Shown here in pieces: positions 36,325 through 39,812 of a DNA stretch of 64,000 nucleotides. The notes beneath the pieces were generated by a model, which was not told where the DNA came from, searched no databases, and saw only the letters and a program-made list of their open reading frames with translations. A program made the position numbers and the translations under genes. How positions within the stretch are numbered: the first letter of the stretch is position 1; every line of letters starts with the position of its first letter. Source of the DNA: a virus; the IMG/VR virus record IMGVR_UViG_3300045988_110343, positions 1 to 64,000 of that record; one strand, 5' to 3'.

Positions 36325-36534
36325 ATGATAGTTTTATTTACGATTCTGATTGGTGGTGCCGTACTGTTTTGCGCAGGAATGTGTCGTTCTGCTGCTACCA
36401 GAGAAATGATTACGGAAGATATTTATTGCCAGATCAAAGCAGAAAGTTTACATAAAAACGCTTTCAGGAAACCAAGAACTGAAATGGAACAGATGACAGA
36501 CATGATTTTTAAAGAAAGCGAGGATGATGAGTAG
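36325..36534 (+). CDS. small membrane protein
   Basis: 69 aa with an N-terminal TM helix. Confidence 0.4.
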   Translation: MIVLFTILIGGAVLFCAGMCRSAATREMITEDIYCQIKAESLHKNAFRKPRTEMEQMTDMIFKESEDDE

Positions 36535-39352
36535 AATGGCATTAGATAAACAAATTCATGTACATTCTGTGGATACAGGGCATTTTTACACAGAAAAAGA
36601 AAAGGCTTTACATAAGCAAAATATGTACATTCGACAGGAACGTGCAGCAATACATAATCAATTAAAGGATTTAGAAAAACAAGCAAAAAGGCAAGGGTTT
36701 TCTGATCAGCAGATTAAAAATATCGAAGCAATTCATATGCGTAGACAAGATATTATTGACACCATATATGATAAAAACTTTAAAGAGCTAAGACAGTCTG
36801 ATGATATACTTGATCAGATCCAATATTGGTCAACGCTTAAAAGTTATAAAACTTTCCCTGCGAAAGATGTCAAAGAAAAACTACTGCTAAGGCTCAAGCG
36901 GGCGGTTGATACAAATGTAAATCTTGCAAAGCATGAGCATGAAGATCGAGTAAAAATTCGATGTTTTTATGAAAAAGATTTGAATGATACAAATACTGTA
37001 TCTCTGTTTGAGTCATTCTTAAGCAGGACAATTCAAGCAGAAACCGATATGTTATGCGAAGATTTAGTTATTGTCCAAGTATATTACTTCGATATTTTCA
37101 AAGATCTTTGTTTTCATGGTATGAACTACTGCGATAAAGATGGCGTAATTACAAAATATAGATACTTCACCTCTTCTGCTGGTCAGATTCGTACAAAAAA
37201 AGCTGTATTCATCAAGGAAGAAACATGGCAGAAATATGAGAAAACATTAATGTGTGGACTCACAATCGACAAAATTAATGATGAAAAACATCAAGGGAAC
37301 AATGTTAACAAACACTTAGCCTACCTTGCATTGACTAATTCAGCGACTGATTTATGGGCAGATTTTGACATTGACAAATCAATCGTTGTAGATGATATGG
37401 AGACTATGGTTTCAGGACTTTTTGATTCTATTGATGATAAGACGTATGAAATTAAGAGGGTTTCTTCTTCTGTTCCAATTCCTCACATGGACGGATGCGG
37501 AATCGCAGACCCAAGTGTATTAAATGCAAATGCAATGGTGCGTATCCCTTGGATCAAAGGACTTCTTGGGAAATTTGCATTTATTGAGCTGATCAAAGAA
37601 AAAGGTTGGTCGCCAATTATTACAGATATTTACGGCAAAGAACATAATGTTATTGAAGAAGATATTAAAATCATTTTCACAAAAAGTCAGTTTAAGATGT
37701 GGAAATATTATGATTCATGGGAAGAATATAAACAATATTATCACGAATTTGGATGTACCGCAGGTTTGTGTAATGTTGAGGAAGAATACATAAAAAATGC
37801 TTCTATAAATTATCAGATGTTGCAGACGCTCACTGATATTACAGATACAGAAATTGAAACATTGAGTAAAAGATCAGTTAAAAAAATCTCTACACTTTGT
37901 GATTCTGTACAACATATGCAGAGAACTTTGGGAATCAATCCATATAATACTCACATGACACCTTTTCAGGAAGCTGTAAAAATCTATCCAAATTTATTAA
38001 ATGATACATATGCGAAAGACACTATCAGAGAAATTAAGAATAGTATGCTGAAGAAATATCGCAGTGGAAAACTAGATGTTTATGGAAAATATACTTTCTT
38101 AATTCCAGATTTATATGCAGTTTGTGAATACTACTTTGGGCATATTGAAAATCCTAAAGGATTGCTTGATGATCATGAAGTGTACTGCAAGATGTTTCCT
38201 AAAAATGATAAGCTTGATTGTCTGAGAAGCCCTCATTTATATAAGGAACATGCAGTAAGATTTAACATTGCTTACGATGCATACGGAGAAAGAAAAGCCG
38301 AAATTTCAAAATGGTTTACTACAAATGCGTTGTATACGAGCGTGCATGATTTAATCTCACGAATTTTACAATTTGACAATGATGGAGACAAGGCATTGGT
38401 GGTCGCAGATAAAAATTTCGTTGATATTGCAGAAAGAAATATGAATAATGTTGTACCTTTGTATTATGAAATGAAAAAAGCAAAATCTGTTTTGATTACT
38501 CCAGAAAATATTTATAATGGATTGATTCATGCGTTTACTGGAGGTAATATCGGACCTTATAGCAATAACATTACAAAGATTTGGAACAGTGATATTTTTG
38601 TTAATGGGTCTGAGGAAGATAAACAAGAAGCCATCGACACCGTAAAACTTTTGTGTATGGAAAATAATTTCGTTATTGATTATGCAAAAACTTTATACAA
38701 GCCTGTTCGTCCTGAAAAGGTTGCTAAACAAATTGCAAAATTTACACAGAAGAAACTTCCTCACTTTTTTGTGTATGCAAAAGACAAGATGGAATCTCAG
38801 GTAGAAGAACGAAATCAGAGTTTTGTTAATAAGTTGTATGACATTGTTCCGAATGTGCAGATTAATACACGGAAACTTAAGATTGATGAAATTGAATACG
38901 ATAAAATGATGTTCGATGTTAATACAAAAGTTGATAAAAATGTCATAGAAATCTATGATCGACTGAATAAACAGTACAGATATAAATTCAATATTGTTGA
39001 TGAACGTGTGGCAAACGATTCATTTGTAAAGCAGACGATTTTAAAAGAATTTGAAAAGACTGGATACTCTGCAATTGAAATCACAGACATGTTGGTTAAA
39101 CATCTGTACTCTAAAAACAAACGATACAAACAATTGTTGTGGTTTGTGTATGGAGAATACATTGTTGAAAATTTAAAACATCATGTTGTAATCAAACCAA
39201 CAAAAAAAGTACAATGCGTTGATTGTGGAGAACTATTTGAAGTGTACGTTCGTAATGCCAAAAAGGTACGATGTGATTCTTGTCAGAAAGTTTTTAGAAA
39301 ACAATTTCAGAAGGAATTAATGAAGAAAAGACGTCAAAATACAGAATGTTAG
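36524..39352 (+). CDS. large protein, candidate YonO-like single-subunit (two-barrel) RNA polymerase
   Basis: 942 aa. FDNDGDKALVV matches the universal RNAP catalytic DxDGD (NADFDGD) motif. C-terminal CxxC...CxxC zinc ribbon. Followed by an HU-like gene, as yonO-yonN is in SPbeta. Confidence 0.45.
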   Translation: MMSRMALDKQIHVHSVDTGHFYTEKEKALHKQNMYIRQERAAIHNQLKDLEKQAKRQGFSDQQIKNIEAIHMRRQDIIDTIYDKNFKELRQSDDILDQIQYWSTLKSYKTFPAKDVKEKLLLRLKRAVDTNVNLAKHEHEDRVKIRCFYEKDLNDTNTVSLFESFLSRTIQAETDMLCEDLVIVQVYYFDIFKDLCFHGMNYCDKDGVITKYRYFTSSAGQIRTKKAVFIKEETWQKYEKTLMCGLTIDKINDEKHQGNNVNKHLAYLALTNSATDLWADFDIDKSIVVDDMETMVSGLFDSIDDKTYEIKRVSSSVPIPHMDGCGIADPSVLNANAMVRIPWIKGLLGKFAFIELIKEKGWSPIITDIYGKEHNVIEEDIKIIFTKSQFKMWKYYDSWEEYKQYYHEFGCTAGLCNVEEEYIKNASINYQMLQTLTDITDTEIETLSKRSVKKISTLCDSVQHMQRTLGINPYNTHMTPFQEAVKIYPNLLNDTYAKDTIREIKNSMLKKYRSGKLDVYGKYTFLIPDLYAVCEYYFGHIENPKGLLDDHEVYCKMFPKNDKLDCLRSPHLYKEHAVRFNIAYDAYGERKAEISKWFTTNALYTSVHDLISRILQFDNDGDKALVVADKNFVDIAERNMNNVVPLYYEMKKAKSVLITPENIYNGLIHAFTGGNIGPYSNNITKIWNSDIFVNGSEEDKQEAIDTVKLLCMENNFVIDYAKTLYKPVRPEKVAKQIAKFTQKKLPHFFVYAKDKMESQVEERNQSFVNKLYDIVPNVQINTRKLKIDEIEYDKMMFDVNTKVDKNVIEIYDRLNKQYRYKFNIVDERVANDSFVKQTILKEFEKTGYSAIEITDMLVKHLYSKNKRYKQLLWFVYGEYIVENLKHHVVIKPTKKVQCVDCGELFEVYVRNAKKVRCDSCQKVFRKQFQKELMKKRRQNTEC

Positions 39353-39365
39353 CTTTTGATATTAG

Positions 39366-39437
39366 GTTAAAAACAACCGTTTTTTTCGGCTAAATATTTT
39401 TAAAAAAATGACAAACATCCGAAAAAAACGGTTGGTG
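39366..39437 (+). other. long inverted repeat (16-bp stem with a U7/A7 tract), possible bidirectional terminator or regulatory stem
   Basis: CAACCGTTTTTTTCGG ... CCGAAAAAAACGGTTG separated by about 30 nt. Confidence 0.4.
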
Positions 39438-39509
39438 AAATGTGTGTATATGGAGAAGCATATATTATTCTTCATATGCACATCAATTTTTAAAATTTTA
39501 AGAAAGTAG

Positions 39510-39812
39510 ATGATGATAATAACTAAACTTGATTTTTATAAAATGATTGCAAAAAGGGAAAATATTTCTCAGGAAATAATTAAAAAGATTTTTCGTTCTG
39601 CCGAAGATATTTTGTTCGATGAATTATCTTCCGTAAATGACTGTGAAATTAAAAAAATTCATATTATGGACGGACTAAGCGTAGAGTCTAAAATTGTGAA
39701 TAAAAAAGAACGGAATCTGCCAAATGGAATTAAAGTCCAAAGTGAACCAACAGTTAAAATCACTCCGAAAATAACTCGCTGGTATAAAGATAAGATTAAT
39801 CAGAACAGATAA
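39510..39812 (+). CDS. divergent HU/IHF-like DNA-binding protein
   Basis: 100 aa. ERNLPNGIKVQSEPTVKITPKITRWYKDKI aligns with the HU arm motif RNPQTG...P.F..GK.LKD. Confidence 0.45.
   Translation: MMIITKLDFYKMIAKRENISQEIIKKIFRSAEDILFDELSSVNDCEIKKIHIMDGLSVESKIVNKKERNLPNGIKVQSEPTVKITPKITRWYKDKINQNR

What the first reader, a model, noticed from the sequence alone, without database searches (positions are those of the whole stretch)
36524..39812. Candidate YonO-like single-subunit RNA polymerase followed by an HU-like gene, same gene order as SPbeta yonO-yonN
The 942-aa protein carries FDNDGDKALVV, matching the universal double-psi-barrel catalytic motif DxDGD (NADFDGD in beta-prime), plus a C-terminal zinc ribbon.

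It sits at the boundary before the late structural genes. The next gene is a divergent HU-like protein. As I recall it from Bacillus phage SPbeta, the non-canonical RNAP YonO, which transcribes late genes, is adjacent to the HU-like yonN.

If correct, this phage runs its late genes with its own minimal two-barrel RNAP. The recurrent AACGGAAA motifs or the U7/A7 inverted repeat at 39366..39437 could be cognate signals.
Basis: partly seen in the sequence, partly recalled or inferred. Interest (0 to 1): 0.6.

Follow-up and report, generated by a model that had tools for sequence, protein, structure and literature searches.

The report
YonO-type phage RNA polymerase locus
The 942-aa gene really is a single-chain RNA polymerase of the known YonO family from Bacillus phage SPbeta, so the call is right but not new; the useful extra is that in this gut-Clostridia branch the gene is nearly always followed by a fixed DNA element and a very divergent HU-like gene, a concrete lead to the still-unknown YonO promoter.

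Summary
The ORF at 36524-39352 (+, 942 aa) is a full-length homologue of SPbeta YonO, the characterised single-subunit two-barrel DNA-dependent RNA polymerase. It is 45% identical, with an identical FDNDGDKAL catalytic loop and conserved SSAGQIRTKK, LRSPHL and CxxC...CxxC motifs. A confident AlphaFold model (pLDDT 89) matches only two-barrel polymerases: RDR2, QDE-1, crAss-like phage phi14:2 vRNAP and P23-45 gp96.

The next gene (39510-39812) belongs to the HU family only at profile level. It is not the YonN orthologue; a canonical HU 51% identical to YonN lies at 46843-47121. This divergent HU-like gene directly follows the polymerase in 75 of 88 related loci.

Between the two genes lies a conserved, single-copy element: two palindromic boxes 42-43 bp apart, then TGTGYGTATAW at about +85 nt. 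Box sequence co-varies with the HU-like protein, not the polymerase. AACGGAAA is unrelated: all copies lie in the minus-strand early arm, six of eleven inside coding ORFs.

Verdict: a new member of a known kind, with a testable lead to the unknown YonO promoter or its regulation.

The parts
33669..33697 (+). Sigma-70-like promoter candidate (TTGACA-17-TAAAAT with TG, 11 of 12 matches) at the head of the plus-strand operon that ends with the polymerase gene
   Evidence: Consensus scan only. The inference is that host RNAP makes the phage polymerase.
36524..39352 (+). YonO-family single-subunit two-barrel RNA polymerase, 942 aa
36692..36844 (+). Largest insertion relative to SPbeta YonO (about residues 57-107), inside a long N-terminal helical region (helices 24-136 in the model)
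   Evidence: Alignment A2; secondary structure of the model
37172..37201 (+). SSAGQIRTKK (residues 217-226): invariant basic motif of the first (beta-like) barrel. R223 and K225 are invariant and K226 is conserved in at least 90% of sequences. D194 (37103-37105), conserved in at least 90%, lies 29 residues upstream, the same spacing as QDE-1 D709 to R738.
   Evidence: QDE-1 numbering from PMC2919709. The residue mapping rests on spacing and was not superposed.
38222..38239 (+). LRSPHL (residues 567-572): the R-x-P motif of the beta-prime-like barrel (R568 and P570 invariant)
   Evidence: compare Rpb1 R446/P448 and QDE-1 R962/P964
38372..38404 (+). FDNDGDKALVV (residues 617-627): catalytic DxDGD aspartate triad D618/D620/D622
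   Evidence: FDNDGDKAL identical to YonO and the triad invariant in 46 sequences. The YonO triad mutant is inactive (PMC5467207).
39215..39283 (+). C-terminal zinc ribbon: C898-x2-C901 ... C917-x2-C920
   Evidence: Invariant cysteines; weak Pfam and PDB zinc-ribbon matches; two beta-hairpins at 893-908 in the model
39377..39389 (.). Box 1, CCGTTTTTTTCGG; left arm of the 16-nt perfect inverted repeat 39374-39389
39419..39431 (.). Box 2, CCGAAAAAAACGG, 42 bp from box 1; right arm of the inverted repeat 39419-39434
39441..39457 (+). Conserved motif TGTGTGTATATGGAGAA (family consensus TTTGTGYGTATAWRGGAA); -10-like; unique in the 64-kb window
39443..39482 (.). Second imperfect palindrome or hairpin overlapping the motif
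39510..39812 (+). Divergent HU-family protein (100 aa); conserved downstream partner of the polymerase gene
41824..43316 (+). Array of 10 tRNA genes inside the same-strand block downstream of the polymerase
45160..46615 (+). YonK-like ORF (45160-45378, weak) and YonJ-like exonuclease (45779-46615)
46843..47121 (+). Canonical HU (PF00216, 94 bits), 51% identical to SPbeta YonN; the closer YonN counterpart
47697..51967 (+). YonG-like protein, large terminase (48606-50351) and portal (50375-51967): start of the structural late module

Best explanation
The gene encodes a YonO-family single-chain RNA polymerase built from two double-psi beta-barrels. One barrel supplies the Mg-binding triad D618/D620/D622, preceded by R568-x-P570. 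The other supplies the basic residues R223 and K225/K226, and probably D194. By homology with SPbeta YonO it is a processive DNA-dependent RNA polymerase. It would be made from a host-transcribed operon and would then transcribe the long same-strand block downstream: HU-like gene, tRNA array, nucleases, canonical HU, terminase, portal and beyond. What is shown: homology, catalytic residues, fold and conserved synteny. What is inferred: DNA template, late-gene role and the polymerase cascade. More tentatively, the conserved element between the polymerase gene and the HU-like gene is the control region of that downstream unit. It consists of two phased palindromic boxes, an A-rich spacer and TGTGYGTATAW, with the boxes as binding sites for the cognate HU-like protein.
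Against: No activity, template or TSS data exist for this protein. The window protein itself does not reach any Pfam threshold. The mapping of the beta-like barrel residues to QDE-1 D709/R738/K743 rests on spacing and conservation, not on a residue-level superposition. For the element: it is single-copy, so recurrence cannot be used as evidence. The motif resembles a host extended -10 (TGTG-YG-TATAAG). Boxes and the small gene are physically linked, so co-variation could reflect co-transfer, and the locus pairs are not phylogenetically independent. SPbeta has no copy of the motif, and its TSS lies after yonN, not before it.
Confidence: 0.88

Rival explanations
1. The protein is an RNA-dependent RNA polymerase, as its Pfam family name and several phage annotations say. 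It would act on RNA (amplification or silencing) rather than transcribe phage DNA.
For: The nearest solved folds are RDR2 and QDE-1 RdRPs. Family members hit Pfam 'RdRP'. The phages Perkons, TR-TP1 and PMBT24 annotate their homologues as RdRP.
Against: The only characterised family member, YonO (45% identical, same motifs), strongly prefers DNA templates and is required for late-gene transcription (PMC5467207). The gene sits in a dsDNA phage ahead of the late module. The annotations follow the Pfam name and are not based on experiments.
Confidence: 0.05
2. The intergenic inverted repeat is simply the transcription terminator, or an RNA hairpin or processing site, of the polymerase operon. The HU-like gene is an ordinary phage nucleoid protein with no specific link to the polymerase.
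For: The region folds into two strong hairpins (-45 kcal/mol, z=-7.7). SPBc2 has an annotated stem-loop right after yonO. The window's boxes are 94% complementary to each other.
Against: No U-tract follows on the plus strand, and the loop is 29 nt. Box 1 to box 2 complementarity is below 0.65 in 18 of 38 loci, while the boxes stay at fixed positions and are individually palindromic. Arm sequence, 42-43 bp spacing and a downstream 11-mer are conserved beyond pairing potential. The gene pair is kept in 75 of 88 loci.
Confidence: 0.2
3. The element is a host sigma-A promoter with an extended -10-like TGTG..TATAAG. Its upstream boxes are operators for a phage regulator, which may or may not be the HU-like protein. 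It controls the HU-like gene, and the YonO-type polymerase's own promoter lies elsewhere.
For: The motif is -10-like with an upstream TG. Paired palindromes four helical turns apart are classic operator geometry. In SPbeta the P_YONO TSS lies downstream of the HU gene yonN: the primers bracket L001 9105-9297.
Against: There is no -35-like hexamer at the proper distance, and the TG is one base out of register with the canonical TRTGnTATAAT (read). No other conserved non-coding signal was found in 4-9 kb downstream in 85 loci, and there are no further long inverted repeats in the window's downstream gaps. An alternative late promoter is therefore not evident.
Confidence: 0.3

Closest known systems
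YonO of Bacillus phage SPbeta/SPBc2 (Forrest et al. 2017, PMC5467207)
   Same: It is a full-length homologue at 45% identity. It shares an identical FDNDGDKAL loop, the SSAGQIRTKK and LRSPHL motifs, and the C-terminal four-cysteine ribbon. An HU-family gene follows immediately, and YonK/J/G-like genes, terminase and portal lie downstream on the same strand.
   Different: The window protein is 103 aa longer, mainly through an N-terminal helical insertion at residues 57-107. Its hosts are Clostridia (Lachnospiraceae-type relatives), not Bacillus. The adjacent gene is a divergent HU-like family with no BLAST similarity to YonN, and the YonN-like HU sits 7.5 kb downstream. A conserved box-box-motif element follows the stop codon and is absent from SPbeta. 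A 10-tRNA array and a beta-CASP nuclease are inserted.
CLG_B2308 plus hup of Clostridium phage D-1873 (ACSJ01000017)
   Same: This is the best annotated match (49% identity). It passes the Pfam RdRP threshold, and an HU gene follows directly after the polymerase.
   Different: Its adjacent HU is canonical (PF00216), it has no motif copy (best match 3 mismatches), and it is annotated only as a conserved hypothetical protein.
Eukaryotic cellular RdRPs QDE-1 (2J7N, 7Y7P) and RDR2 (7RQS, 7W82)
   Different: Sequence identity is only 11-15%. They are eukaryotic and work in RNA silencing on RNA or ssDNA templates. They have no zinc ribbon of this type and no phage context.
Phage two-barrel RNAPs with solved structures: crAss-like phi14:2 gp66 (6VR4) and Thermus phage P23-45 gp96 (8H2M)
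   Different: Those proteins are described in their PDB entries as virion-packaged or tape-measure-fused. This one is a stand-alone 942-aa protein encoded next to the late module. No sequence-level similarity was detected.
HU/IHF family and its viral members (SPO1 TF1, ASFV pA104R)
   Same: The 100-aa protein's family profile matches exactly these proteins, full-length or nearly so. It has the HU-like N-terminal helix pattern, and the window protein has an RNLP stretch aligned with HU's RNP arm motif.
   Different: It is below Pfam's threshold (16.9 against 22.4 bits). The RNP/proline arm motif is not conserved across the family. It forms its own family of about 49 clusters at 50% identity, which is tied positionally to YonO-type polymerase genes.

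Membership tests
YonO-family single-subunit two-barrel RNAP | Full-length sequence homology to SPbeta YonO | tested here: met
   45% identity, E=0; end-to-end alignment; PHROG 8308 E=2e-239
YonO-family single-subunit two-barrel RNAP | Catalytic aspartate triad DxDGD | tested here: met
   D618/D620/D622 lie within FDNDGDKAL, which is identical to YonO, and are invariant in 46 sequences
YonO-family single-subunit two-barrel RNAP | R-x-P motif upstream of the triad (Rpb1 R446/P448; QDE-1 R962/P964) | tested here: met
   R568 and P570 are invariant, 50 residues before D618 (45 in QDE-1)
YonO-family single-subunit two-barrel RNAP | Two basic residues and a fourth Asp from the second (beta-like) barrel (QDE-1 R738, K743, D709) | tested here: inconclusive
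   R223 and K225 are invariant; K226 and D194 are conserved in at least 90% of sequences. The D194-to-R223 spacing of 29 equals that of QDE-1. No residue-level structural superposition was available.
YonO-family single-subunit two-barrel RNAP | Two double-psi beta-barrel fold in one chain | tested here: met
YonO-family single-subunit two-barrel RNAP | DNA-dependent, processive RNA synthesis | not testable with these tools
   Known only for YonO itself (PMC5467207)
YonO-family single-subunit two-barrel RNAP | Required for late-gene transcription from a dedicated promoter | not testable with these tools
   The context is compatible, with the late module downstream on the same strand. No expression data are available.
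HU/IHF (PF00216) for the 100-aa protein | Passes Pfam's gathering score | tested here: not met
   16.9 bits against 22.4. All 8 relatives tested are also weak, best E=1.8e-4.
HU/IHF (PF00216) for the 100-aa protein | Profile-level homology over the full length | tested here: met
   Family profile against PDB: pA104R 7.5e-6, TF1 2.3e-4, HU 6.4e-4. hhalign against true HUs: 77% probability, E=2e-5, residues 4-98 against 1-91.
HU/IHF (PF00216) for the 100-aa protein | Beta-arm with R-N-P and an intercalating proline | tested here: inconclusive
   The window protein has RNLP aligned to RNP, but the positions are not conserved in the 40-sequence family alignment
HU/IHF (PF00216) for the 100-aa protein | Dimeric HU fold | not tested
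YonN orthologue (SPbeta HU next to yonO) | Sequence similarity to YonN | tested here: not met
   No BLASTP alignment for 39510-39812. The ORF at 46843-47121 is 51% identical to YonN.

The most novel reading that the evidence does not exclude
The divergent HU-like protein is a sequence-specific architectural factor dedicated to the YonO-type polymerase. Its dimers bind the two phased palindromic boxes just after the polymerase gene and bend the A-rich spacer. Together with the conserved TGTGYGTATAW motif, this forms the single late promoter or switch from which the factor-less two-barrel polymerase starts. Box specificity co-evolves with the HU-like protein, while the motif is read by the polymerase.
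Probability: 0.22. Interest if true: 0.75.

Novelty: new member of a known kind. Interest (0 to 1): 0.42.

Why it matters
YonO is the only characterised bacterial-virus relative of the eukaryotic RdRP branch of two-barrel polymerases. It is also a model for a minimal ancestor of cellular RNA polymerases. Its promoter, and whether it needs a helper factor, were explicitly left open in 2017, and I found no later paper that resolves either point.

This locus shows that the family is very large in gut Clostridia phages and prophages: more than 3,700 database hits and 258 confirmed loci in species-representative genomes. In that branch the polymerase gene comes with a fixed neighbour gene and a conserved, single-copy, position-locked DNA element. 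That yields a short list of sequences and one protein to test for promoter recognition.

The identification of the polymerase itself is ordinary.

Tried and rejected
- Sequence search of the polymerase against PDB, both single-sequence and family-profile, gave nothing meaningful. No YonO structure is deposited, and only a weak zinc-ribbon match to RNAP subunit P appeared (E=0.32).
- Pfam on the window protein gave nothing significant.
- The first AlphaFold run used 33 sequences from one clade and was poor (pLDDT 64). Adding the Bacillales clade fixed it.
- Megablast of 20 kb against phages and plasmids found no relatives, only tRNA fragments.
- BLASTP of the 100-aa protein against YonN and D-1873 HU gave no alignment. 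Its phmmer hits to 'Pizza' designer proteins are repeat artefacts.
- AACGGAAA as a polymerase signal is rejected: all copies are in the minus-strand early arm and 6 of 11 are inside coding ORFs.
- The upstream small ORFs as conserved partners are rejected. The 69-aa ORF is in only 3 loci and is unrelated to yonP; the 145-aa ORF is in 12 loci.
- A search for further copies of the box or the motif in the window found none beyond chance. The best SPbeta matches have 2-3 mismatches and are not above chance. The second L003 copy at 2650 looks like a chance TG-rich match.
- Rfam found no family in the intergenic region.
- Other downstream gaps in the window have no long inverted repeats.
- The exact SPbeta TSS coordinate (2225998 in strain 168) could not be converted to phage coordinates. 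It was only bracketed by the published primers.
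Full report
**1. Observation.** 
The window holds an uninterrupted ORF at 36524-39352 (+) of 942 aa, followed after 157 nt by a 100-aa ORF at 39510-39812. The string FDNDGDKALVV is residues 617-627. Four cysteines (C898, C901, C917, C920) form a CxxC...CxxC pair near the C-terminus. The intergenic inverted repeat is real, with perfect 16-nt arms at 39374-39389 and 39419-39434 and 29 nt between them. 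AACGGAAA is over-represented (11 copies against 2.2 expected, 0 of 100 shuffles reach that count). However, every copy is on the minus strand between 14761 and 24445. Six lie inside coding ORFs, five of them in two paralogous Bro/Ant genes. None is near the polymerase or the late genes.

**2. What the 942-aa protein is.** 
Pfam gives nothing significant for the protein itself, and sequence searches of the PDB are empty. PHROGs places it full-length in phrog_8308, of unknown function (E=2e-239).

tblastn against annotated phages finds SPBc2 yonO at 45% identity over residues 141-920 (E=0). It also finds Clostridium phage D-1873 CLG_B2308 at 49% and Psychrobacillus phage Perkons at 41% over residues 6-938.

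A multiple alignment with YonO runs end to end. It shares the N-terminal LDKQxHxxSxDT motif, SSAGQIRTKK, LRSPHL, an identical FDNDGDKAL and the four cysteines. The extra length comes mainly from an insertion at residues 57-107.

In a 46-sequence alignment spanning the Clostridia and Bacillales clades, these residues are invariant: S217-R223, K225, R568, P570, H571, D618, D620, G621, D622 and the four cysteines. D194 and K226 are conserved in at least 90% of sequences. These match the order, and nearly the spacing, of the eight residues reported as invariant in all two-barrel polymerases (PMC2919709). In QDE-1 those are D709, R738, K743, R962, P964 and D1007/1009/1011. D194 to R223 is 29 residues, as is D709 to R738. 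R568 to D618 is 50 residues, against 45 in QDE-1.

The family is very large: more than 3,700 hits at E<=1e-5 among the 8,000 candidates scored. Seventeen of 33 close relatives match Pfam RdRP PF05183, with a best E of 2e-12. Several exceed the gathering score, including D-1873 at 47.8 bits against a cut-off of 23.8.

**3. Fold.** 
A first AlphaFold run on a single-clade alignment was poor (pLDDT 64). Even so, its only specific Foldseek hits were RDR2. After I added the Bacillales YonO clade, the model reached pLDDT 89.4 and pTM 0.84.

- **Foldseek against the PDB:** the top 15 hits are all RDR2 or QDE-1 (E from 2.4e-14 to 2.5e-9, probability 1.00, TM up to 0.51). Everything else is above E=1.

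**4. Function, by homology.** 
YonO is a strict DNA-dependent, highly processive RNA polymerase whose aspartate-triad mutant is inactive. It is essential for SPbeta, and 37 late genes depend on it. These are transcribed as one operon from a single TSS downstream of yonO and yonN. The promoter, and any need for a factor, were left open (PMC5467207). I found no later paper that resolves this.

At 45% identity with all catalytic motifs intact, the same activity is the reasonable inference here. It has not been shown.

**5. Context.** 
Genes at 1-30 kb are on the minus strand and include integrases, Bro/Ant paralogues and a sliding-clamp-like protein. From 33.7 kb to the end of the window, all substantial ORFs are on the plus strand.

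A strong sigma-70-like promoter candidate at 33669-33697 heads the operon that ends with the polymerase.

Downstream, in order:

- the HU-like gene (39510-39812);
- a secreted 3D-domain protein (40003-40392);
- a Bro-N antirepressor (40695-41462);
- ten tRNAs (41824-43316);
- a beta-CASP/metallo-beta-lactamase nuclease (43561-45000);
- a weakly YonK-like ORF (45160-45378);
- a YonJ-like exonuclease (29% identity, E=3e-47);
- a canonical HU (46843-47121; PF00216 94 bits; 51% identical to YonN);
- a YonG-like protein;
- the large terminase (48606-50351) and portal (50375-51967).

The SPbeta late-module order is therefore conserved. The YonN-like HU, however, is 7.5 kb from the polymerase.

**6. 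The adjacent 100-aa gene.** 
It has no BLASTP similarity to YonN or to the D-1873 HU, and it is below Pfam's HU threshold. An exhaustive search finds only 49 representative clusters.

A profile of 40 of them hits the HU/IHF family specifically in the PDB: ASFV pA104R 7.5e-6, SPO1 TF1 2.3e-4, HU 6.4e-4. It aligns full-length with true HUs in hhalign (77% probability, E=2e-5). 'Divergent HU-like' is therefore justified, but the fold itself was not modelled.

Across the window plus 87 related loci, a member of this family lies within 500 nt downstream of the polymerase on the same strand in 75 of 88 loci. The related loci are mostly Lachnospiraceae and other gut Clostridia genomes. Only SPbeta and D-1873 carry a canonical HU in that position. 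Several loci carry both kinds. The upstream small ORFs are not conserved.

**7. The intergenic element.** 
A long inverted repeat directly after the stop codon is positionally conserved. Arms of at least 12 nt occur in 39 of 88 loci, against 2 of 176 intragenic controls and 1 of 88 shuffles.

About 20 loci share the same arms, CGTTATTTACGG...CCGTAAATAACG, with a start-to-start distance of 42-43 bp. The arms are followed by TTTGTGYGTATAWRGGAA.

The 11-mer TGTGYGTATAW, allowing at most one mismatch, is present in 44 of 88 loci at a median of +85 nt from the stop. Background predicts 0.008 per window. It is essentially single-copy per locus. An unbiased 10-mer scan finds this element to be the only position-locked non-coding conservation in the 4-9 kb downstream.

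When the loci are aligned on the motif, the general form becomes clear. There are two boxes of about 13 nt, each individually palindromic, at fixed positions with an A-rich spacer between them. The box sequence varies by group: CGT-N5-ACG, CCAT-N5-ATGG, CTGGATATCCAG in L003, and CCG-T7-CGG / CCG-A7-CGG in the window at 39377-39389 and 39419-39431.

The two boxes are mutually complementary in only 10 of 38 unique loci, and clearly not complementary in 18. A long RNA hairpin or terminator is therefore not the common denominator, even though the window's version folds strongly (-45 kcal/mol, z=-7.7). No Rfam family matches.

**8. Co-variation.** 
Over 41 loci, box similarity correlates with identity of the HU-like protein (Spearman 0.60). 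The partial correlation is 0.51 after controlling for the polymerase. Box similarity does not correlate with the polymerase once the small protein is controlled for (0.06).

I then made a prediction and tested it on newly fetched contigs. Four phages have polymerases 92-96% identical to each other. The three with window-type small proteins (85-87% identity) have window-type boxes. L003, whose small protein is only 44% identical, has different boxes. The motif GAAATGTGYGTATATGGAGAAG is invariant in all four.

Two caveats apply. The boxes and the small gene are physically linked, so they could be exchanged as one module. The locus pairs are also not independent.

**9. Comparison with SPbeta.** 
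The published primer-extension primers (supplementary table) map at L001 9081-9104 and, as a reverse complement with a one-T indel, at about 9297-9323 (read). The P_YONO TSS therefore lies within roughly L001 9105-9297, in the yonN-yonK gap.

That stretch holds a long inverted repeat: 23-nt arms with a 44-nt spacer at 9193-9282. This suggests a shared theme, but the motif is absent there and the position relative to the HU gene differs.

**10. Verdict.** 
The identification as a YonO-type polymerase is correct and well supported. It is a new member of a known, already very large family. The 'yonO-yonN gene order' holds positionally but not as orthology. The U7/A7 repeat is the local version of a conserved box-box-motif element. 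Its best current reading is a control region, possibly the cognate promoter, for the downstream same-strand unit, with the boxes as candidate sites for the HU-like protein. That part is inference. A host-promoter-plus-operator model and an RNA-level role remain open.

Noticed in passing
window 24352-24445 (minus strand): Three AACGGAAA copies sit exactly 43 bp apart, immediately upstream of the minus-strand ORF 23747-24340. The innermost reads GAACGGAAAAACGGTGG, 12 nt before the ATG. The arrangement looks like phased operator or iteron sites of an early-region regulator. The spacing equals that of the boxes after the polymerase gene.
   Followed up: partly
window 46843-47121 (+): A second, canonical HU gene (PF00216, 94 bits; 51% identical to SPbeta YonN) lies between the YonJ-like exonuclease and the YonG-like gene. 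The phage therefore encodes two HU-family proteins. L005, L006 and L007 show the same duality.
   Followed up: yes
window 41824-43316 (+) and 3235-3372 (-): An array of 10 tRNA genes (Ser, Glu, Tyr, Arg, Asn, Leu, Gln, Met, Pro, Thr) sits inside the putative late unit. Rfam also calls a 138-nt tRNA-like match at 3235-3372 on the minus strand that ARAGORN did not report; it may be an intron-containing or interrupted tRNA.
   Followed up: no
window 43561-45000 (+): A 479-aa beta-CASP/metallo-beta-lactamase protein with an RMMBL domain (RNase J/CPSF-like nuclease) is encoded just after the tRNA array. It may have a role in processing the long late transcript or the tRNA precursors.
   Followed up: no
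window 29725-33700: A region of about 4 kb at the strand switch is nearly free of ORFs and AT-rich (GC 0.30 at 30-32 kb). It has short tandem repeats at 31129-31250. It could be the divergent early control region or an origin.
   Followed up: no
L003 7645-9354 compared with window 39353-40003: L003 is mosaic relative to the window. Its polymerase is 96-97% identical, but the boxes and the HU-like gene are replaced (44% identity), and an IS605-type TnpB gene is inserted between the HU-like and 3D-domain genes.
   Followed up: partly
L001 (SPBc2) 9006-9282: The yonN-yonK gap that holds the published P_YONO TSS contains three long inverted repeats and a direct repeat, GTNCATTTATGARGGT (near 9046 and 9204). 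I found no description of these in the papers I read.
   Followed up: partly
window 15458-16552, 17111-18475 (minus strand) and 40695-41462 (+): There are at least three Bro-N/antirepressor paralogues. The two on the minus strand carry in-frame AACGGAAA copies, which accounts for part of that motif's enrichment.
   Followed up: partly
proteins P0269 and P0285: JGI names two full-length YonO homologues 'ribosomal protein L37E', presumably because of the C-terminal zinc ribbon. This is an annotation artefact that could hide family members in databases.
   Followed up: no
window 8700-9725 and 11414-12364 (minus strand): Two tyrosine-integrase-like genes lie in the early arm, consistent with a temperate phage or phage-plasmid. 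No attachment site was sought.
   Followed up: no
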